A stretch of DNA of 63,570 nt, counting the filler, from Asterionella formosa (taxonomy: Eukaryota), in the NCBI GenBank assembly GCA_002256025.1. It is 11 parts of 11 records of this genome, joined end to end, with 100 filler letters (N's around TTAATTAATTAA, not from the genome) between each part and the next. Parts side by side here need not be neighbours in the genome. Positions count along the whole stretch, not along the records: positions 1 to 24,593 come from NKIB01002204.1; 10 more parts are not named here. The stretch is one strand, 5' to 3'. How positions within the stretch are numbered: position 1 is the first letter of the stretch; each line of letters starts with the position of its first letter. The notes under the pieces are model-generated. The model did no database searches, was not told the origin of the DNA, and saw only the letters and a list, made by a program, of their open reading frames with translations. The position numbers were made by a program, and so were the translations under genes. Positions 590 to 15,067 of the stretch are shown piece after piece.

Positions 590-1978
590 CTAGGCAATAC
601 TTAAGAGAACAAAAACCTCTAACGAAATTGCATGACCCAACAATGCCCACGACCCCCAATGAGCCTTACCTGAAACTCTCAAACAATCGTCTTCCAGCAG
701 ATCAGTAAATCTGGAACATAGAACCGACGTTTGTTCGTCAAATAAAATCCGACTGATACATTCGAGTTGAGGAAGGACCACCAACAGGGAAAGGGCAAAG
801 ATCAAAGGATTGACAATTACGTGCAATACCCGGAGAATAGATTTCATTGACTTTATCCCGCACCAGTACGCAACCGTGAAAGCCCATAAAAGAATTGGGA
901 GGATGAGCACTTGCGTTAACAAGAAACCGCCACATAGTTGTCGCATTAAGCTCTGTGATTTTTGACTGGAAAGAATTGAGACCAAGTCCTTGAAATGGAC
1001 TACGATCTCGCGTTCCTTCATGAATTCCACACCAATACCATGGTATTCGATCCGAAACAAAGGTGTTACCAAAGTCATAGCCATCAAGATGACAGCCAAC
1101 AAAGCACTCTCGAAAACAAACGACTGGTGGATCCAACTTGACCTGTTTGAAACATGGGAAGTTGCTGGTTGACCCCACCTCAGTACAATGGCGACGCCCG
1201 ATGCAGCCATCAATCCTAACACGTAGCTCGTCAAACCAAGTTGTATCTCATTATACAATCGTATCACGGTTTCGGTGAAATGAAGCTGAACTCCTGTGAC
1301 CGTTATATCCAAAATCAACAACAGATAAAATACGAAGAATCCAGCCCGTAATAGCAAATCAAACCATCGTTCATGCAAAATGAGAGGAATGTTTCCAAAG
1401 AAGACTTGGTGGGCTTCAATAATCGCAAGTGGTTGCAAAATCATCGAGCAACAGGGAACTAAAAGAGAGGTAACCCCTACAACAAACAGAATTGTTTTGG
1501 ATTCCAAAGAGTTGGCCAACTGAATAATTTCTGTCAAAGAAAAGCTCTGCAATACTGTATCTGTCAAGTCATCTAGGCCGGGAAGAAATCGCTCTTGCCA
1601 GTCGACAGTGACCGCGAGATGCAGACTAGCCCAGCTGCAGGAAAGAAATGAAGCCCACAAACAGCCCCATTCCAGTAGAATTAATGATCCTCCAATCAAA
1701 CTGAAATATGAAACAGATTCATGATTCAATTTCTCCTGGATTTCAGAAACCGCACGATGCGGCGAAGACAATAGGGGCTCTGACAGTACCTGATTTGTAG
1801 AATTGGAAGAAGCCAATTCAGATGCTAATCGCACATCGTCAAATAGGCTTTCTTGTGGCTCTTTCTTTCTCATGAGTTGTGCGAGAGGTGATTCTCCGTC
1901 GTCGTCTAGTGAATGATTACCAGCTGATAACGAAGGAGGACCATCGCCTGCCAACAACGGCGTGCTGTCGATCGTCAT
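590..1978 (-). CDS. Multi-pass membrane protein, possibly PqiA-like (two internal hydrophobic repeats)
   Basis: Long uninterrupted ORF; first ATG at 1978 (MTIDSTPLL). Acidic, disordered N-terminus followed by about 8-9 hydrophobic segments in two loosely similar halves. The family assignment rests on general resemblance only. Confidence 0.55.
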   Translation of the reverse strand: MTIDSTPLLAGDGPPSLSAGNHSLDDDGESPLAQLMRKKEPQESLFDDVRLASELASSNSTNQVLSEPLLSSPHRAVSEIQEKLNHESVSYFSLIGGSLILLEWGCLWASFLSCSWASLHLAVTVDWQERFLPGLDDLTDTVLQSFSLTEIIQLANSLESKTILFVVGVTSLLVPCCSMILQPLAIIEAHQVFFGNIPLILHERWFDLLLRAGFFVFYLLLILDITVTGVQLHFTETVIRLYNEIQLGLTSYVLGLMAASGVAIVLRWGQPATSHVSNRSSWIHQSFVFESALLAVILMAMTLVTPLFRIEYHGIGVEFMKEREIVVHFKDLVSILSSQKSQSLMRQLCGGFLLTQVLILPILLWAFTVAYWCGIKSMKSILRVLHVIVNPLIFALSLLVVLPQLECISRILFDEQTSVLCSRFTDLLEDDCLRVSGKAHWGSWALLGHAISLEVFVLLSIA

Positions 1979-2423
1979 GTTGTTCGGAGACACCTGATAC
2001 TGGGTATTCTATGGCATGCTGTTTGTTATTCTTGGAGTACCAGGTACCACATAGTAGTAGGTAGTTACTACAGGTACAAGCAACCTACCTGCAGGCGGTT
2101 GCTGTAATTTTGCTGAAATGGACAACGTGGGCTGACGCAACGCACACAGGAGCTCAAAAAGACTGAATAAATTATATCATCGACCTCTCTTACACTTTGA
2201 ATCGACAGTATCACGACTTGTCATAGTGACCTAAATAATTATTTCATATAAACACGGAAACGTCAAAATGCCGAGGCTAAGCTACTGATTCATGTATATA
2301 ATACATAGAGAAAGATTAAAATTGGCTACTACATTTGAAAAAAAAGAGTTTTTTGCCTTTTTCGACTTCCACTTTTGCGCATCTCGAGCGAAATGCAGAT
2401 GCCTGACCCCACTTTTTTCTTGC

Positions 2424-3447: not shown

Positions 3448-3581
3448 AGAGCAATTGAGTTGGTCCGCACATTCCTGGATTGAAATGCTTCCAACTATTA
3501 TGGGAAATGTTAATAAAAACTAAATCTAAAGTGAATAATATTCTTCTATACTAGTTTTCACGTCATCAATGATTTCTTTTT

Positions 3582-6500
3582 CTAATCTGCGAGCTCCCCA
3601 ATTTTGTCAGCTTTGACTAGTGACAATCTGCTCTTTGAATGAACGGCATCAAAGGATTCCGTTCCATCGCGACCAGCTAATTTTTGAATCAACTTAGGTC
3701 CACCAGGGTGAGTTTTTGCAAATTCTGATATGTTGTAGACATCGCCGTGAAATGCAACCCAACAATCTGTCGTCGAATTATGAAGGTTAAGCTCAGCCAG
3801 TGTAATTTCCCTGACATCGTGTTCGCTCTCTTTGGTCAAATTGGCTGGAATTGTTTCAAATCGCCCCATTATCACGTCACCGAAATCTTCTAACATGCGT
3901 TCGTTGTGTACAGCATTGAAGGCAATGCTACCATCCTTACCGGCGAGGGCGAAGATAGATTCAGCCCCTCCTGGATGCTCTTCAGCAAATTCAGTAAAAT
4001 CGTATACAATCCCGTTGATTGCAACCCAGCAATCACCTTCATGGTTGTGCTTCTCCAGTTCTTCCATTTTGATCTCGCTGGTGCAACTCTTGACTTCCTT
4101 TGCTAGATTTGTAGCAGTTGCTTGCACACTCGATTGTAAGGCGCGAGTGCTCTTGATGGGTAACTTCTTCCCAACGATACTTCCGAATACTGTGCACTCA
4201 AGCAGCGAATTACCCCCCAGACGGTTGTCACCGTGCACGCCACCTGTGACCTCACCAGCAGCGTGTAAACCCTGTATGCGTTCCCCGTATTCTGTCAACA
4301 CGTTGCCTTCTGTGTCGATGGAAATCCCTCCCATGCAATAGTGTAGAACTGGTGTAACTTTGCCCGCGTAAAAGATTTCTGAATCAAGATCCATTTGTGG
4401 GATTCCCCTGAATTCAACTTTTCCCCACTGGTCCATGCCCTTTTCGGCGCTCTCTCTATACTGAATTAAAGTCCTGCGAAGGACATCCTCCTTCACCCCC
4501 ATCCACTCAGAAAGTGCAGAAAGCCCTTCAATCTTAGTTAAAAGCCCCTTGTGTGAGTATAGATCAACATGCTTCTTACCGTCTTCGGCAGCTGAAGAGG
4601 CCAAAACCATATTGAAGGTCTCAATCGGGCTATCCTTGTCCCACCGACCCGCTTTTGCGTAGTGAGAATTATGCTGCAGCATCTTGTCAGTAACATAGGC
4701 TCGAGTACCAAGTTCATTACAAAATCGCTTTCCTTCCTTGTTTATAAGAATGCCACCTACTCCACGCATCAGCTCCGCAGCCAGGACTTTGCTTTTATTG
4801 TCAGGATCAGCAGGATCGACCCATCCAGTCGGATGGATCTGTACCTTGTCCATGTCCACAATCCCAGCCCCAAGAGTGGTAGCAAGTGTTAAACCATCCC
4901 CATTTGAAAATTCACCAGCTGTAGCAGGCATATTTACAAGCTCGGGCCGGTACTTGTCTAAGTACGAGCCAGTGCTTCTATCCGCTGCAAAACCTCCAGT
5001 TGCCAAGACGACATTGGATCCTATCAGTTGTTCTGTGTCACCGCTTATCAGGTTTCTGCTTTGGACGCCAATCACCCTACCTTTTTCATTTGTCAACAGT
5101 TGAGTGACTCGAGAATCGACAATAATCTTAACCTTGCCTGTCTTTTCGTAGGACTGAACAGCTTTCTGCATCCCGTAAATGATTTCTGCTCCTACCATCC
5201 CATTACTTGGACGATGAGTGCGCTTGTGCGAGTGACCACCAAGTTGAGCAATCAACGAGAGATCAATACCAACCCGCTCTTTCAACCAAACAACAGCTTC
5301 TTCGGATTTGCTCACTAACACGTCAATCAGCTCTTGTCGCACAGTAGATCCCGCAGACTTGATAGTATCATTCTTAAACGACTCTATGAAGTCACCGAAT
5401 GTAGAATTTTGAGGACAGCATGCATTGATCCCAGAGGAAGCTTTGTTCGAGTTCCCCCCCAGACGGTGTTCCTTTTCTATAACGGTCACCTTGCCACCAC
5501 GATCAAGGATATTCAAGGCAGCAGTTAAACCAGCGAGGCCACTTCCGACAATAATCGCATCAGGCTCGTTATCGTTGCCACCAGTTCCAATCATGTTTGA
5601 AAAGCTTAAAAACTTGTCCGCATCACTTGCATAGTGCTTAGCCAAGATCAAAATGTCAGAATTGCGTTGCAAAGCTAAATGAACCAATTCAGCTTCACGT
5701 TCATTGGAAATGTGGCCACCGCGAGATAACAACGCTGTCAAACCAACGGCAGTATCGACCAAGTTGACCAGGGAATTTCCTGTTTCTATAAATGTTTCCT
5801 CTGAGGGCACAGCCACTATTGTCGCTTGAGTTGCTTTTGCTATGGTCTTGCTTTCCAGAGACTGCGATCGCCAGTATAAATTAGTCAATTCCCTTACTTC
5901 CTTCATACTTTCACTAAACTTGGCAATCGTGTTAATAAAAGCAACCACTTCATTGCGCTCTAAGGAGATGATATCATTCATGAACAAAATCTTCAAGGCG
6001 GTTCCATATCCCGTCATTGCCATTTTGCCATGCAGCTTACATTGTTGGCACTGGACACAATCCAAAATAGATGAAATATTATGAAAGACGCCTTTGAAGT
6101 TTTGCTTCAAAGAAATGACATTTTTTGATGCAACATCTTCGGAGAACATGAGTGTTTCATCAAAGGCTGAAAAGACGGGTTGACAAGATTTAAGAATTGC
6201 TGAATCCAGCAATCGCTTTAGCAAAACAGATGCCGCTTGATCTTCCAACGTGTTTCCAGATGATATGGGATAGTTGTACAGGTAGTCAGAAGCCTTGCGA
6301 AGCGCTCGGAGGAGCACGACGTAGGAAAAATGAAGATTGCGAAGATAGTCAGGATTACCTTCAAACTTTGCCATAAAAAGCTCTGGATTGGGCTCCCAAT
6401 TGAGTCGATTCTTACGCTTTGACGGAGGATAATAGTGTTTGACTATGGACAAGGTAGTGGAAGTGTGTAATCCACTCAGTAGCCTGTGCATGACGCGTTC

Positions 6501-7442
6501 TTCATAGCACATTTCATGTTCCTTGGCTACCAGGCAGTTTTCTTGATATATCGCATTCCAAATGTGTGTTCCATTGTACCCTGTGTTGCGTTCTGGATTC
6601 AAGAGCAAATTTACCACCTTTGTTGTGTCACCCGCTTTAATGTTAACGCACATGTCGTGCCAAAAAGTGTCGAGTAAGGGATTCGAACAGTCTTTTCCTT
6701 CGCAACAATCTTCCTTTTGGGTGTCAGCAATAACTTTGTCGGAATGCTTGTTCCATTGATACGTCTTGCGTTGGGCTTCTGATTCAAAACCAAGACTATA
6801 AATTGTTTGCAGTGCGGCGGCAATGAAATCCTGAATGGGAGTTGAGCGCTTTTCATCTTCATTCAATGTACAGAGTGGCTCTGAATCATCGTCCATGCCC
6901 AAGTCTTCACCTCCATCGCATTCAAAGTCTGCATCGTCTAATTTTGGTTCTAAATCAGAACCAGGCTTGGATGACGCTGCCTTCTTGTCGTTTCTTTCTG
7001 ATTTGAAGATGCTCACGTCGCTAGTCATGCCTCCTCCATATCCCAGAGCAGAAAAAGGATCCTCTTCTTGCAATGCACAAGCAGGACCAGCATCATCATC
7101 CATGTCGGGGATTCCGTCGGATTCGCAAGTTTTCAATTCTACCTCCTCGTCTGCATCCGATTCCTTTTCAACTTTCTCTATTGAAGTACTCGTATCTTCC
7201 TTTTTCAAAGGACACGTCTGATCCAAGTCCACGATAAAGGATCTGAAAAAGGAAGTTGCCTTGAGCTCATGCAAAATTTCAAATAATTGAGAGTCATTGG
7301 CTTTTTCTAAGTCTTCCACGTTGCATTGCATGTCACTGTAAATTGGTCCGGAACTTGGCAACGACGAGGAAGGGTAAAACAATGGTTGTGTTAGGCTGCA
7401 TACTGGGGAACAAAGCAGCAATAGAGCGACCGTGAACTTCAT
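3582..7442 (-). CDS. Secretory-pathway fusion protein: ER oxidoreductin 1 (ERO1) + soluble FAD-dependent fumarate reductase (Osm1/flavocytochrome c type) + two cytochrome b5 domains
   Basis: Single 1286-aa ORF with a signal peptide (MKFTVALLLLCSPVCS). ERO1 motifs FFRSFIVDL, LLLNPERNTGYNG, CYEERVMHRLLSGLHTS and CVQCQQCKLHGK. FRD motifs GSGLAGL, GGNSNKASSGIN, GGHSHKRTH, VQIHPTG, HYCMGG and GGVHGDNRLGGNSL. Two b5 domains, each with HPGG and a second His. Confidence 0.93.
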   Translation of the reverse strand: MKFTVALLLLCSPVCSLTQPLFYPSSSLPSSGPIYSDMQCNVEDLEKANDSQLFEILHELKATSFFRSFIVDLDQTCPLKKEDTSTSIEKVEKESDADEEVELKTCESDGIPDMDDDAGPACALQEEDPFSALGYGGGMTSDVSIFKSERNDKKAASSKPGSDLEPKLDDADFECDGGEDLGMDDDSEPLCTLNEDEKRSTPIQDFIAAALQTIYSLGFESEAQRKTYQWNKHSDKVIADTQKEDCCEGKDCSNPLLDTFWHDMCVNIKAGDTTKVVNLLLNPERNTGYNGTHIWNAIYQENCLVAKEHEMCYEERVMHRLLSGLHTSTTLSIVKHYYPPSKRKNRLNWEPNPELFMAKFEGNPDYLRNLHFSYVVLLRALRKASDYLYNYPISSGNTLEDQAASVLLKRLLDSAILKSCQPVFSAFDETLMFSEDVASKNVISLKQNFKGVFHNISSILDCVQCQQCKLHGKMAMTGYGTALKILFMNDIISLERNEVVAFINTIAKFSESMKEVRELTNLYWRSQSLESKTIAKATQATIVAVPSEETFIETGNSLVNLVDTAVGLTALLSRGGHISNEREAELVHLALQRNSDILILAKHYASDADKFLSFSNMIGTGGNDNEPDAIIVGSGLAGLTAALNILDRGGKVTVIEKEHRLGGNSNKASSGINACCPQNSTFGDFIESFKNDTIKSAGSTVRQELIDVLVSKSEEAVVWLKERVGIDLSLIAQLGGHSHKRTHRPSNGMVGAEIIYGMQKAVQSYEKTGKVKIIVDSRVTQLLTNEKGRVIGVQSRNLISGDTEQLIGSNVVLATGGFAADRSTGSYLDKYRPELVNMPATAGEFSNGDGLTLATTLGAGIVDMDKVQIHPTGWVDPADPDNKSKVLAAELMRGVGGILINKEGKRFCNELGTRAYVTDKMLQHNSHYAKAGRWDKDSPIETFNMVLASSAAEDGKKHVDLYSHKGLLTKIEGLSALSEWMGVKEDVLRRTLIQYRESAEKGMDQWGKVEFRGIPQMDLDSEIFYAGKVTPVLHYCMGGISIDTEGNVLTEYGERIQGLHAAGEVTGGVHGDNRLGGNSLLECTVFGSIVGKKLPIKSTRALQSSVQATATNLAKEVKSCTSEIKMEELEKHNHEGDCWVAINGIVYDFTEFAEEHPGGAESIFALAGKDGSIAFNAVHNERMLEDFGDVIMGRFETIPANLTKESEHDVREITLAELNLHNSTTDCWVAFHGDVYNISEFAKTHPGGPKLIQKLAGRDGTESFDAVHSKSRLSLVKADKIGELAD

Positions 7443-8293
7443 GGTTTTGGTGATGCGGCGGAAGAAGTAAGTGACGGCAGAACAGGTTTCACAAGCAGAA
7501 ATTTAAGGATTGGTTCCTCTGATAGAGAGCAAGTATCGTTAAGCAGTTTCGATTCAAATGCCAATGCCGATACTGAGCTTTAAATTTGGCTCACGCGTTT
7601 GTCTCAAGACCTTTCACAGCCAACTATGAAGTGAATGAATCAATGGATGTCACGGAGCGGAGGTGAGGGAAATCCTTTTCTCAGATGTATGATTGTTCAA
7701 GTTCATTATTTGCATGGAATTATGACTATCACGTCTCGATCGTTGTTGTACAGCATGCATCATGTGTCGTGCGTATAATACTAACGGTATACATGAGATA
7801 TTTAGAGCTCGATGGAAAAAGGCGAAAACTGAAGCGGAAGGCAGTCGAACAACAAGAGGAAGATGCGTTGATGATGGCGGGCTATTCATATGGTGTGCGG
7901 AATACACCTGGCACCAGGTACCTGGTACCTGGTTACCACACATGATAAGCGCGGGTGTATACTTACCAACTACATATGGTTACGGAACACAGTCCACGAC
8001 AACGCACAACACACCTCGTGCTGTACTGAATACCAAAACTGTTGATGATGCAATATAAAATGTATTTCTATCTCACTATGCACACATATGGACAGGTACT
8101 GGTACATACCGGTACCGGATACCAGTGCCCGTATGTTGGTTTTAGTGATTTTTCTTGATGTCGTAGTTGTATCATATGCCCTGCTCCCGCCAACTTCACG
8201 ACTGATTGACACTCTGTGTACCAGGAACCGCTGGTACTACAGTACTCGGTACACATGAATATTTTCTTGGTAGTATGATTCCTAGCTACAAGC

Positions 8294-13500: not shown

Positions 13501-13960
13501 AGTCTCAACCCACTTTACCAAGACAATGACAACACCCATCGTCAACAGTAAAAGAACACACATATCGGTATATGATATAGAACAAAAATTGCGTCAATTT
13601 TGTCTGCACATCACAAAATTTTACTCTTGATTATTAAATGCAAAACAACTCTATACTAAGGCCTACGTATCCTACTATATTGACCTTCAGGTTGCAACCA
13701 GATATACATAAAGGAGCATTTGCAGAAAAGGCAGTCGAATGAGTCGGTAATTGAGTCGAAGAACTTCGGAGCAACACCAACATCGATTTACCTTTTGTGG
13801 CAAAAATAGAAAAACAAAACGTAATATAAGGTTTGAAAAAGAGTGGTGTCGATTCATCGCCGCCTGGTGCTTCCTCTTCTTTCAACTTCCATCGTGAACT
13901 GTTAAAGAGTGCGTATCGGTCCCGTAGCCCTTAACAAAAGCCTACGACTCCGTCGCAGTC

Positions 13961-15067
13961 ATGGCAGAAAGAAACAGCAACGAATTCATACCTTCGTCGT
14001 CGCAGCCTCGTTTTTATCACGCTCTTCATGTCAAATACGTTGCAGGCTTAAGCAAACAACTAAAGTCCTCCTATGAAGGAGCTGTTGTCGATCATTTAAA
14101 GATGAGTGGCGTATATTGGAGTTTGGCAGGGATTTCCTTGTTGTTGAATGCACAGCAAGTCGACGAGGCAATGGGATTGACCACTATCCAAGAAGGCGAG
14201 GACGAATCTATAGTCGACTGGGTCATTTCCTGCCTTGATCCCAAATCTGGTGGTTTTGGAGGACAGCGAGGTCAAGATGGGCATTTGCTCTATACTCTAA
14301 GTGCGATTCAAATACTCGCTATTGCCGATAAATTGCCCCTAATTGACGTAGACCTTGTCGTCGATTTCATTGCAAGTCTCCAGCAACCCGACGGAAGCTT
14401 CGCCGGCGACAAGTGGGGGGAAATCGACACTCGATTCACCTATTGTGCCCTTTCCGCCCTGAGTATATTGAAACGGATAGACGCCATTGACATGAAGCTT
14501 GCCGTGGATTACATATTGCACTGTCGTAATGAGTTGGACGGTGGCTTTGGTGCCGTGGTTGGGGGCGAATCTCATGCGGGCCAAGTTTTTTGTTGCATAG
14601 GCGCACTTAGTATTGCCAAGGCACTGGACCGACTCCCTCAAAACGACATTCTCACATGGTGGTTGGCCGAACGACAGTGCGATAGTGGTGGACTCAATGG
14701 ACGGAGTGAGAAGCAAGCAGATGTGTGCTACAGCTGGTGGATCTTGTCGGCCTTGTCTATCCTTGGTCGGATGGACTGGATTGCGCAAGATAAGCTAGCA
14801 GCCTTTATATTGCAATGCCAAGATCCAGATGATGGAGGGATTGCGGATCGACCGGAGGACATGCCTGATGTCTTTCATACTTTTTTTGGCGTGGCAGGCT
14901 TATCGCTGTTGGCCAAGTTGCCCACTGAATTGCGACAAATCGATCCCATATACGCTCTTCCTGTCGATGTGGTGGAGCGATTGGATCTGCAAGGGCAAGT
15001 AATTAAGAACAAAGGGCAAGTGCATGTAGAAGCGAGGCTTCAGCGATATTCTGTGGTGGAGAAATAA
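13961..15067 (+). CDS. RABGGTB: Rab geranylgeranyltransferase (GGTase-II) beta subunit
   Basis: HLKMSGVYW, HLLYTLSAIQIL, GDKWGEIDTRFTYCA, ESHAGQVFCC, GGLNGRSEKQADVCYSWW and DVFHTFFGVAGLSL; prenyltransferase repeats with the Zn ligands D, C and H. Confidence 0.96.
   Translation: MAERNSNEFIPSSSQPRFYHALHVKYVAGLSKQLKSSYEGAVVDHLKMSGVYWSLAGISLLLNAQQVDEAMGLTTIQEGEDESIVDWVISCLDPKSGGFGGQRGQDGHLLYTLSAIQILAIADKLPLIDVDLVVDFIASLQQPDGSFAGDKWGEIDTRFTYCALSALSILKRIDAIDMKLAVDYILHCRNELDGGFGAVVGGESHAGQVFCCIGALSIAKALDRLPQNDILTWWLAERQCDSGGLNGRSEKQADVCYSWWILSALSILGRMDWIAQDKLAAFILQCQDPDDGGIADRPEDMPDVFHTFFGVAGLSLLAKLPTELRQIDPIYALPVDVVERLDLQGQVIKNKGQVHVEARLQRYSVVEK

What the first reader, a model, noticed from the sequence alone, without database searches (positions are those of the whole stretch)
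3582..7442. ERO1-fumarate reductase-(cytochrome b5)2 fusion: a candidate one-protein, oxygen-independent ER disulfide-formation chain
Seen in the sequence: one intronless ORF with a signal peptide, a full ERO1 domain (~5880-7330; NPERNTGY, active-site CVQCQQC), a ~90-aa linker, a soluble fumarate reductase (~4155-5560) and two bis-His b5 domains (~3860-4075, ~3590-3815). The reductase keeps the motifs carrying the flavocytochrome-c-type catalytic residues (QIHPT His, ELMR Glu/Arg, NELGTR Arg, HYCMGG His, NRLGGN Arg). Established: Ero1 normally passes electrons from PDI to O2, making H2O2, and yeast uses the separate soluble fumarate reductase Osm1 to reoxidise FAD and support Ero1 anaerobically. 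Inference: here the two partners are covalently joined, with b5 hemes as a possible relay or outlet (PDI to Ero1-FAD to FRD-FAD to fumarate). This would permit oxidative folding in dark or anoxic conditions, or without H2O2 release. I know of no characterised protein with this architecture but cannot verify novelty.
Basis: partly seen in the sequence, partly recalled or inferred. Interest (0 to 1): 0.92.

Follow-up and report, generated by a model that had tools for sequence, protein, structure and literature searches.

The report
ERO1–fumarate reductase–cytochrome b5 fusion gene
A freshwater diatom makes one long secreted-pathway protein that joins the enzyme that creates protein disulfide bonds (ERO1) to a fumarate reductase and two small haem domains, a design that could let disulfide formation run on fumarate instead of oxygen and that turns out to be widespread in protists but unstudied.

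Summary
Window 3582-7442 (minus strand) is one intron-less 1286-aa ORF. It has a signal-peptide-like N-terminus, a full ERO1 domain, a conserved helical connector, an Osm1/Fcc3-type soluble fumarate reductase (FRD) and two cytochrome b5 domains. RNA contigs from four studies cover it co-linearly with no joints. One contig spans the whole CDS and ends in a poly(A) tail.

The fusion is not unique to this gene or to diatoms. The same ERO1-FRD-b5 design occurs in over 100 diatom proteins and in a labyrinthulid, diplonemids, a chytrid, a chromerid, Amoebophrya and Ostreococcus-type algae. Haptophyte and cryptophyte records are fragments of it. One b5 is the rule; the second is a local duplication.

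All catalytic residues are invariant in 43 fused proteins. The ERO1 part belongs to a separate "long-loop" subfamily that lacks the canonical C-x4-C shuttle.

The proposed electron path is PDI to ERO1-FAD, then b5 haem, then FRD-FAD, then fumarate. It is plausible and has in-vitro precedents, but it is untested. No paper describing the fusion was found.

The parts
3510..7702 (-). Minimum extent of the mRNA: 3' end with poly(A) addition at about 3510 (72 nt after the stop codon); 5' UTR reaching at least 7702.
   Evidence: the X1 contig covers 3510-7567 and has a loose T-run before 3510. The X6 contig reaches 7702 and the X8 contig reaches 7705. No joints were reported.
3582..7442 (-). Coding sequence, 1286 codons plus stop, no intron.
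7383..7442 (-). Residues 1-20, a signal-peptide-like hydrophobic N-terminus (MKFTVALLLLCSPVCSLTQP).
   Evidence: Kyte-Doolittle scan; no dedicated signal-peptide predictor was available. 40 of 47 fused relatives also have an N-terminal hydrophobic 10-mer scoring 2.0 or more.
5895..7289 (-). ERO1 domain, residues 52-516, of the long-loop subfamily.
   Evidence: PF04137, E 9e-80; Ero1p and Ero1-alpha structures; tree.
7077..7127 (-). First acidic Cys loop, C106-x15-C122. It looks like a copy of the second loop and is absent from 6 of 21 aligned diatom proteins.
6870..6920 (-). Second acidic Cys loop, C175-x15-C191 (FEC...EPLC). It is invariant in 21 diatom proteins and is the probable outer (shuttle) dithiol that replaces the canonical C-x4-C.
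   Evidence: The shuttle role is inferred from position only.
6039..6059 (-). C462-VQ-C465-QQ-C468. C465 and C468 form the FAD-proximal active-site CxxC. C462 aligns with the cysteine just upstream of the active site in Ero1p.
   Evidence: aligned to CVQCDRC of Ero1p; C465 and C468 in 43 of 43; C462 in 42 of 43.
5598..5780 (-). Conserved four-helix connector module, residues ~555-615. It follows an ~18-residue low-confidence tether (538-555). No Pfam family matches it.
   Evidence: four helices; 10-residue block pLDDT 81-91; invariant D563, L572, E583, L586, K602, H603, F611; the motif is present in the other fused sequences whose aligned rows were visible, including the labyrinthulid, diplonemid and chytrid proteins; no family reported here.
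4203..5561 (-). Soluble fumarate reductase flavoprotein domain, residues 628-1080, Osm1/Fcc3 class. Catalytic residues are H870, E890, R893, R914, H1034 and R1074.
3855..4076 (-). Cytochrome b5 domain 1, residues ~1123-1196, with haem ligands H1156 and H1179. A ~23-residue low-confidence tether (1099-1121) precedes it.
3591..3824 (-). Cytochrome b5 domain 2, residues ~1207-1284, a tandem duplicate of b5-1. A ~12-residue tether (1198-1209) precedes it.
   Evidence: (1bfx aligned to 1203-1284).

Best explanation
This is a real, expressed gene of a freshwater diatom. It encodes a soluble protein of the secretory pathway, most likely resident in the ER lumen, and the protein is a self-contained disulfide-generating redox chain.

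Proposed path:
1. Reduced PDI-type proteins hand two electrons to an outer cysteine pair on a long acidic loop (C175/C191).
2. The electrons pass to the C465-C468 active site and then to the ERO1 FAD.
3. Instead of, or in competition with, reduction of O2 to H2O2, the ERO1 flavin is re-oxidised one electron at a time by the tethered cytochrome b5 domain(s).
4. The b5 domain(s) swing to the fumarate reductase domain and reduce its FAD.
5. The FRD domain reduces fumarate to succinate.

Shown here: the gene, its transcript, the domain order, conservation of every catalytic or ligand residue, flexible tethers around the b5 domains, and the wide distribution of the family.

Inferred: ER residence, every electron-transfer step, the role of C175/C191, and the availability of fumarate in the lumen.
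For: 1. Gene and transcript.

2. Conservation. The three modules have been kept together in at least 120 listed proteins (all 120 carry PF04137 and PF00890, 119 also PF00173). They also occur together in 31 of 38 long 50%-cluster representatives scanned, 26 of those with b5 at E<=1e-12. In 43 fused proteins of 36-79% identity these residues are invariant: C465 and C468; H870, E890, R893, R914, H1034 and R1074; b5 H1156 and H1179. The six FRD residues are exactly those whose mutation reduced Osm1 activity (PMC6242907 section 7; mapped through the alignment).

3. Precedents. Ero1 plus Osm1 plus fumarate make disulfides without oxygen in vitro. They bind only weakly (Kd ~150-200 uM), and docking places Ero1 where the haem domain sits in Fcc3 (PMC6242907 section 9); a covalent link would remove that weakness. 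A review reports that Ero1p reduces cytochrome b5 and cytochrome c anaerobically in vitro, and objects only that such metalloproteins are not in the ER (PMC2672033, passage read). This fusion would put a b5 there.

4. The stacking residues of Osm1's pocket for free flavin are not kept. The W295 equivalent is aromatic in 1 of 43 and the F297 equivalent in 0 of 43. That argues for haem rather than free flavin as the electron donor to the FRD.

5. Structure. The AlphaFold2 model has confident domains, with the b5 domains on low-confidence tethers of ~23 and ~12 residues.

6. ER location. The N-terminus is hydrophobic and there is no other membrane-like segment. Three relatives end in KDEL, RDEL and HTEL.

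7. Canonical ERO1. A search seeded with a stramenopile canonical ERO1 listed 120 best hits of 3123. Every row with a readable organism name was an oomycete, brown alga, pelagophyte, eustigmatophyte, other ochrophyte or plant, and none was a diatom. This suggests the fused form may be the diatoms' main ERO1.
Against: - No biochemical, localisation or genetic data exist for any member.
- The model's pTM is only 0.54, so no fixed arrangement of domains, and no cofactor distances, can be claimed.
- Typical b5 potentials (around 0 mV, recalled) lie above typical FRD-flavin potentials (Fcc3 about -150 mV, recalled). The b5-to-FRD step may therefore be uphill unless these haems are tuned low.
- This protein has no KDEL-type ending.
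- How fumarate would enter the ER is an open question even in yeast (PMC5638582, passage read).
- The ERO1 domain lacks the canonical C-x4-C shuttle, so its reductant may not be a standard PDI.
- Absence of a canonical ERO1 in diatoms is not proven. No genome was available, and many rows are unnamed.
Confidence: 0.55

Rival explanations
1. The modules sit on one chain but are not wired in series. The FRD-b5 unit is a general luminal flavin and haem re-oxidising or redox-buffering enzyme, like the free-standing FRD-b5 proteins of fungi. Alternatively, b5 is an outlet to, or inlet from, another partner such as a membrane cytochrome or reductase. In either case the ERO1 domain still uses O2 as its normal acceptor.
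For: FRD-b5 without ERO1 is a common architecture in fungi and other eukaryotes (earlier finding e1-564932). Stand-alone long-loop ERO1 proteins exist inside the fused group, so the ERO1 part can work alone. pTM is 0.54. The gene is present in many lake-water and freshwater RNA libraries.
Against: The fusion, with its own conserved connector module, has been kept over 36-79% sequence identity and across several eukaryotic lineages. That is hard to explain without a functional link. Ero1p reduces b5 in vitro, and Ero1 and Osm1 cooperate in vitro.
Confidence: 0.25
2. The protein is not an ER enzyme. The signal peptide sends it to the cell surface, the frustule-forming compartment or the periplastid space. 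There the flavin and haem domains act as a thiol-driven or succinate/fumarate-linked extracellular or periplastidial oxidoreductase.
For: This protein has no KDEL-type ending. Diatom signal peptides also lead to plastid-related compartments (general knowledge).
Against: Relatives end in KDEL, RDEL and HTEL. ERO1 is an ER enzyme wherever it has been studied. Read from the alignment, there is no conserved aromatic residue directly after the hydrophobic N-terminal stretch. No canonical ERO1 from a named diatom was seen that could do the ER job instead.
Confidence: 0.1
3. The FRD-like domain acts on a substrate other than fumarate, for example urocanate or another enoate, or it runs in reverse and feeds electrons from succinate into b5.
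For: The nearest structures include urocanate reductase (6t85, E 1e-49).
Against: Osm1 and Fcc3 score far better (E 2e-77 and 1e-58). All six residues used for fumarate binding and reduction are invariant.
Confidence: 0.05
4. Assembly or gene-model artefact: two or three neighbouring genes read through as one.
For: None found.
Against: A single open frame with no stop. RNA contigs of four studies are co-linear, one covers the whole CDS with a poly(A) tail, and there are no joints. Full-length MMETSP transcripts of relatives are marked 'type:complete'.
Confidence: 0.01

Closest known systems
Yeast Ero1p plus Osm1 (ER form of soluble fumarate reductase), a two-protein system (Kim et al. 2018, PMC6242907)
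   Same: The same two enzyme families are involved. The FRD part's best solved relative is Osm1. The six catalytic residues are identical. The ERO1 active site CVQCxxC is identical in pattern.
   Different: Here the two are one polypeptide, joined by a conserved helical module, and carry one or two b5 haem domains; Osm1 has no haem domain. The aromatic residues of Osm1's second, free-flavin pocket are lost. The ERO1 part lacks the C-x4-C shuttle.
Shewanella flavocytochrome c3 (Fcc3) fumarate reductase
   Same: A soluble FRD flavoprotein with a covalently linked haem domain that feeds electrons to the FAD. Same catalytic residues.
   Different: Fcc3 has an N-terminal tetra-haem c domain and is periplasmic and bacterial. 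Here the haem domains are C-terminal b5 and an ERO1 domain lies upstream.
Eukaryotic FRD-cytochrome b5 proteins (fungal 'Osmotic growth protein' / 'fumarate reductase (NADH)' clusters; Ostreococcus-type FRD-b5)
   Same: Same FRD plus C-terminal b5 module (earlier finding e1-564932).
   Different: They lack the ERO1 domain and the connector. No functional study of them turned up in the search.
Canonical ERO1 (yeast Ero1p, human Ero1-alpha, plant ERO1/2, stramenopile ERO1)
   Same: Full-length Pfam ERO1 match, the NPERxTGY motif and the CxxCxxC active-site region.
   Different: The outer cysteine pair lies 15-45 residues apart in an acidic or low-complexity loop instead of C-x4-C. The domain falls on the other side of a branch with SH-aLRT 100 from 12 canonical ERO1s (quick tree). 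It is fused to FRD-b5.
Erv1/ALR to cytochrome c (and Osm1) in the mitochondrial intermembrane space
   Same: A flavin sulfhydryl oxidase that passes electrons to a haem protein or to Osm1 and fumarate instead of O2 (PMC5638582, abstract and passages; PMC7155059, start of abstract in the search listing only).
   Different: A different oxidase family, a different compartment, and separate proteins.

Membership tests
ERO1 (PF04137, ER oxidoreductin) | Full-length match to the family profile above the curated cut-off | tested here: met
   268.9 bits against a cut-off of 27, profile 1-354 of 354.
ERO1 (PF04137, ER oxidoreductin) | FAD-proximal active-site CxxC, with a further Cys just upstream (Ero1p C349, C352, C355) | tested here: met
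   One search aligns CVQCQQC to CVQCDRC of Ero1p. C465 and C468 are present in 43 of 43 fused proteins.
ERO1 (PF04137, ER oxidoreductin) | Outer shuttle disulfide C-x4-C shortly after the CPFW motif | tested here: not met
   C-x4-C is present in all 7 canonical ERO1s in which the loop was found. It is absent in the 18 long-loop sequences in which the loop was found, and in this protein and the fused sequences aligned. A C-x15-C pair (C175/C191) stands in the equivalent loop.
ERO1 (PF04137, ER oxidoreductin) | Bound FAD and thiol oxidase activity | not testable with these tools
   Sequence conservation only.
Soluble fumarate reductase, Osm1/Fcc3 class | FAD_binding_2 flavoprotein fold, with Osm1 and Fcc3 as closest structures | tested here: met
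   259.8 bits against a cut-off of 20.4; 5glg E 2.3e-77; 1qo8 E 1.2e-58.
Soluble fumarate reductase, Osm1/Fcc3 class | Six catalytic or substrate residues (Osm1 H281, E301, R304, R326, H435, R477) | tested here: met
   H870, E890, R893, R914, H1034 and R1074, mapped through the alignment onto the residues named. Present in 43 of 43.
Soluble fumarate reductase, Osm1/Fcc3 class | Osm1-type second pocket for free flavin (K76, S78, P162, W295, F297, L298, N359, F362, Y363) | tested here: not met
   4 of 9 residues are kept in this protein (K667, S669, L887, Y962). The W295 equivalent is S884 and the F297 equivalent is V886. Aromatic residues occur at these two positions in 1 of 43 and 0 of 43.
Cytochrome b5 (PF00173) | Profile match and the two axial histidines (HPGG His and the second His) | tested here: met
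   (144 bits, two stretches). One search shows both domains with HPGG and AVH. b5-1 H1156 and H1179 are present in 43 of 43.
ER-luminal resident protein | Cleavable signal peptide and a retention mechanism | tested here: inconclusive
   The N-terminus is hydrophobic and there is no other membrane-like segment (hydropathy only). This protein has no KDEL-type end. KDEL, RDEL and HTEL occur in 3 of 47 relatives.

The most novel reading that the evidence does not exclude
In diatoms, and in a scattered set of other protists, algae and a chytrid, the ER's primary disulfide-generating enzyme is hard-wired through a tethered b5 haem relay to a fumarate reductase. Oxidative protein folding then ends in succinate rather than H2O2 and does not need O2. 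Diatoms have lost the canonical O2-dependent ERO1 altogether. That would imply a luminal fumarate supply with succinate export. It would also make the fusion natural 'Rosetta-stone' proof of the Ero1-Osm1 link proposed in yeast.
Probability: 0.35. Interest if true: 0.85.

Novelty: new variant of a known kind. Interest (0 to 1): 0.68.

Why it matters
What re-oxidises Ero1 when oxygen is absent, and whether eukaryotes can make disulfides without producing H2O2, are long-standing questions. A 2009 review still called alternative acceptors such as fumarate merely 'not excluded'.

The only worked example is yeast Ero1 plus Osm1. It rests on a weak interaction of 150-200 uM.

A natural, conserved, expressed fusion of exactly these two enzymes, with a haem relay added, is independent evolutionary evidence that the coupling is physiological. 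It also offers a single-polypeptide system in which the whole path can be measured.

It may also bear on their survival in dark or anoxic sediments.

Tried and rejected
1. Complex prediction, FRD-b5 (622-1195) against the ERO1 core (196-530): 'no answer', ipSAE 0.00 and 0.00, and my alignment was not used. This counts neither for nor against docking.

2. AlphaFold2 of residues 196-1286: the domains are confident but pTM is 0.54. The tool gives no coordinates, so no cofactor distances could be derived.

3. A search of the window's own genome for a second ERO1 was impossible because no genome is held. I tried to settle the question through protein searches instead. No canonical ERO1 from a named diatom was listed, but many rows are unnamed and only 120 of 185 and 120 of 3123 hits were shown. 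Loss of the canonical gene is therefore suggested, not shown.

4. The Nitzschia inconspicua 'endoplasmic reticulum oxidoreductin' (P0297, 565 aa, ERO1 only) looked like a split form. It carries the connector motif followed by an aberrant tail, so I read it as a truncated gene model.

5. Gross et al. 2006 (PMC1326156) is not held. Its result is cited only through the review passage.

6. The paper search (min_terms 2) was swamped by diatom papers and was uninformative. Searches found nothing about this gene.

7. The search of earlier findings returned nothing by place or by sequence.

8. The tree is a 'quick' tree. 11 of 50 intended rows were dropped because a strict NPE[RK] pattern was not found in them. 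The root is unknown, so no order of events or donor lineage is claimed.

9. Supplements of the papers were not consulted.

Full report
**Observation**

Under the standard code, window 3582-7442 (minus strand) is a single ORF of 1286 codons. The frame is closed by a stop 20 codons upstream of the first ATG. Pfam finds three families:
- ERO1 at residues 52-516 (E 9e-80, whole profile).
- FAD_binding_2 at 628-1080 (E 6.8e-77, whole profile).
- Two Cyt-b5 stretches (E 1.4e-42).

Among solved structures, the flavoprotein part is closest to yeast Osm1 (5glg, E 2.3e-77) and then to Shewanella flavocytochrome c3. The ERO1 core is closest to yeast Ero1p and human Ero1-alpha (E ~1e-37). The C-terminal parts match b5 domains. 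The two b5 domains are tandem duplicates, 52% identical over 62 residues.

**Is it one gene and is it expressed?**

The index search listed 22 runs. Twenty hold all or part of the stretch, 19 of those are on record as RNA, and they come from 17 studies. Most are lake-water or freshwater metatranscriptomes; one is a polyA transcriptome.

I laid contigs of four runs from four studies:
- X1 has one 4070-nt contig over 3510-7567. It covers the entire CDS and carries a non-templated T-run before 3510, which is the poly(A) tail of the minus-strand message 72 nt after the stop codon.
- X7 (polyA library) has a 3908-nt contig over 3690-7597 with no differences.
- X6 has 4088-7702 plus 3584-4085.
- X8 has 3544-5487 plus 5476-7705.

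All four runs have a contig that bridges the ERO1-FRD connector (5560-5880). Three of four (X1, X7, X8) bridge the FRD-b5 junctions. No joints were reported, so there is no intron. Contigs cannot show transcript starts or levels. Relatives include MMETSP transcripts marked 'type:complete'. Misassembly or read-through of separate genes is therefore excluded as far as contigs allow.

**Distribution**

A full-length search gave 405 hits. All 120 listed carry ERO1 and FAD_binding_2, and 119 also carry Cyt-b5. Those with names are diatoms: Skeletonema, Cyclotella, Thalassiosira, Stephanodiscus, Mediolabrus, Nitzschia, Cylindrotheca, Asterionellopsis, Leptocylindrus and Detonula.

An exhaustive search of 50%-identity representatives with residues 200-1286 found many long proteins of 37-50% identity matched over nearly the whole query. 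Of 38 I scanned with Pfam, 31 have ERO1 plus FAD_binding_2, and 26 of those also have Cyt-b5 at E<=1e-12.

Names recovered for some of them:
- Aplanochytrium minuta, Diplonema ambulator and Batrachochytrium salamandrivorans.
- Namystynia karyoxenos, and a 134-member cluster that includes an Ostreococcus lucimarinus fragment.
- Chromera velia and three Amoebophrya strains.
- A Chrysochromulina tobinii entry actually named 'ero1-like protein precursor fumarate reductase, partial', plus cryptophyte fragments from Hanusia (ERO1 plus FAD_binding_2) and Baffinella (ERO1 only).

The ESM Atlas also holds three clusters with this three-family make-up. So the architecture is a sizeable, patchily distributed eukaryotic family. 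It is not a diatom invention, and public records already hold it under loose names.

1. *One b5 is the norm.* Only 6 of 21 aligned diatom proteins, including this one, have the second b5.

2. *The 'linker' has structure.* AlphaFold2 on a 43-sequence alignment (residues 196-1286; mean pLDDT 80.1, pTM 0.54) predicts:
   - a low-confidence tether at residues 538-555;
   - four helices at about 555-615, with 10-residue block pLDDT of 81-91;
   - low-confidence tethers of ~23 and ~12 residues before b5-1 and b5-2.

   The helical module has invariant positions among diatoms. Its motif (…ELV..A…LL.LAKHY…F) is visible in the other fused sequences whose aligned rows I could see, including the labyrinthulid, diplonemid and chytrid proteins. 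Pfam reports nothing there.

3. *The ERO1 part is not canonical.*
   - Canonical ERO1s of plants, animals and chytrids, and a stramenopile-type one, have C-x4-C within 40 residues after the CPFW motif (7 of 7 in which the loop could be extracted).
   - The 18 long-loop sequences in which the loop could be extracted have none (45 sequences examined, loop found in 25). The fused sequences aligned, including this protein, have none either.
   - Instead two cysteines lie 15-45 residues apart in an acidic or low-complexity loop. In diatoms this is FEC-x15-C (C175/C191), which is invariant. This protein also has a second, similar loop (C106/C122) that 6 of 21 diatom proteins lack.
   - In a quick maximum-likelihood tree of the ERO1 core (39 rows; 11 further rows dropped by my pattern filter), 12 canonical ERO1s are separated from 22 fused and 5 unfused long-loop proteins by a branch with SH-aLRT 100. 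The chytrid fused protein sits with the fused group, while the canonical chytrid ERO1s sit with the canonical group.
   - Some unfused long-loop ERO1s with a short tail exist. One cluster has 252 members.

**Catalytic competence**

Kim et al. name six Osm1 residues (H281, E301, R304, R326, H435, R477) that match Fcc3 and whose mutation reduced activity. Through the Osm1 alignment these are H870, E890, R893, R914, H1034 and R1074 here.

In 43 fused proteins of 36-79% identity, all six are invariant. So are the ERO1 CxxC (C465, C468) and the b5-1 histidines (H1156, H1179).

By contrast, Osm1's second pocket for free flavin is only partly kept. The W295 equivalent is aromatic in 1 of 43 and the F297 equivalent in 0 of 43.

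**Location**

The only strongly hydrophobic 19-residue windows (above 1.6) lie at the N-terminus. The Rossmann strand at 628 reaches exactly 1.6. Forty of 47 fused proteins have a comparable N-terminal stretch. Three end in KDEL, RDEL or HTEL. This protein ends in GELAD. ER residence is therefore likely but not shown, and I had no signal-peptide predictor.

**Mechanism: best reading, about 0.55**

The proposed path is:
- PDI-type dithiol to the outer cysteine pair;
- then to C465/C468;
- then to the ERO1 FAD;
- then to the tethered b5 haem(s);
- then to the FRD FAD;
- then fumarate is reduced to succinate.

Precedents:
- Ero1 plus Osm1 plus fumarate form disulfides in an oxygen-depleted assay. 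They bind weakly (Kd ~150-200 uM), and docking puts Ero1 at the place of the Fcc3 haem domain.
- A review reports that Ero1p reduces cytochrome b5, cytochrome c and azurin anaerobically in vitro. It notes that these metalloproteins are not in the ER. This fusion would supply a luminal b5.
- Erv1 uses cytochrome c and Osm1 in mitochondria.

Loss of the free-flavin pocket and the flexible tethers fit a mobile haem relay. Every transfer step is inference.

Open points are the haem and flavin potentials, the fumarate supply to the lumen (an open question in yeast too), and the reductant for the unusual shuttle loop.

**Is it the diatoms' only ERO1?**

A search seeded with a stramenopile canonical ERO1 (P0393) listed 120 of 3123 hits. 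Every row with a readable organism name was an oomycete, brown alga, pelagophyte, eustigmatophyte, dictyochophyte, other ochrophyte or plant. None was a diatom.

The ERO1-only hits with diatom names are of the long-loop type at 58% identity or more. One of them looks like a truncated model of the fused gene.

This suggests replacement of the canonical gene in diatoms. It does not prove it, because no genome was available and many rows are unnamed.

**Rivals**

- Modules not wired in series, with FRD-b5 as a general luminal redox unit or b5 serving another partner: 0.25.
- A non-ER destination: 0.10.
- Another substrate or reverse direction: 0.05.
- Artefact: 0.01.

**Novelty**

Nine searches of the open-access library found no paper on a natural ERO1-FRD fusion:
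- Ero1 + fumarate reductase + fusion: 5 papers, none on a natural fusion by title; Kim 2018, the Plant Cell paper and Neal 2017 were checked by passages, and their 'fusion' or 'fused' hits refer to constructs.
- Ero1 + fumarate reductase + diatom: 0 papers.
- oxidoreductin + fumarate reductase + cytochrome b5: 0 papers.
- fumarate reductase + diatom + anoxia: 14 papers, none relevant by title; 2 checked by passages.
- A four-term search with min_terms 2: uninformative.
- Ero1 + diatom: 36 papers, 20 listed, none relevant by title.
- Ero1 + fumarate reductase: 10 papers, judged by listing.
- fumarate reductase / cytochrome b5 / Osm1 / heme: judged by listing.
- Ero1 + cytochrome b5: 101 papers, 25 listed.

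Subscription journals are mostly outside this library, so prior mention elsewhere cannot be excluded. The sequences themselves are public and loosely annotated.

I rate it a new variant of a known kind: the Ero1/Osm1 system as a covalent flavo-haem fusion built on a distinct ERO1 subfamily. It is interesting mainly as natural evidence for fumarate-linked, H2O2-free disulfide formation, and as a one-protein system in which to test it.

Noticed in passing
window 7077-7127 and 6870-6920 (residues 106-122 and 175-191): Two similar acidic C-x15-C loops lie in tandem in the ERO1 N-terminal region. The first is missing from 6 of 21 aligned diatom proteins, so it looks like a lineage-specific duplication of the presumed shuttle loop.
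   Followed up: partly
window 5598-5780 (residues ~555-615): A conserved four-helix module lies between ERO1 and FRD. It has no Pfam family, is confidently predicted (10-residue block pLDDT 81-91), and appears in the fused proteins of distant lineages whose aligned rows were visible. Its role (docking platform, spacer or something else) is unknown.
   Followed up: partly
relatives P0342-P0356 and P0366: A group of unfused ERO1 proteins has the long-loop (non C-x4-C) outer cysteines and a short tail ending ...KTKNLAL. One cluster has 252 members. In the tree they nest next to the Ostreococcus-like fused protein, which may reflect secondary fission.
   Followed up: partly
relatives P0168, P0163, P0165: Two fused proteins of Amoebophrya strains and one unnamed fused protein end in KDEL, RDEL and HTEL. 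These are ER-retrieval-like motifs placed after the C-terminal b5 domain.
   Followed up: no
relatives P0130, P0140, P0146, P0157, P0161: Proteins of 700-840 aa match only the FRD plus both b5 domains, at about 50% identity. They may be N-terminally cut fused proteins or free-standing FRD-b5-b5 forms.
   Followed up: no
window 13928-15067 (+): A stop-free frame of 379 aa has a full prenyltransferase alpha-alpha toroid domain (PF00432, E 1.1e-93). It is probably the beta subunit of a protein prenyltransferase.
   Followed up: no
window 590-2008 (-): A 472-aa stop-free frame downstream of the gene has no Pfam match.
   Followed up: no
window 7538-7715: In run X1 a short separate RNA contig (204 nt, depth 318.7) covers the 5' UTR region. 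Its loose end repeats nearby UTR sequence, which may reflect a hairpin or an assembly quirk at the 5' end.
   Followed up: no
relatives P0220, P0243, P0257: Other FRD fusions turned up among the representatives: FRD + acyl-CoA oxidase, CPSF100-like + FRD, and ApbE + FRD + NAD_binding_1. From memory, the last is the trypanosome-type NADH-fumarate reductase layout.
   Followed up: no
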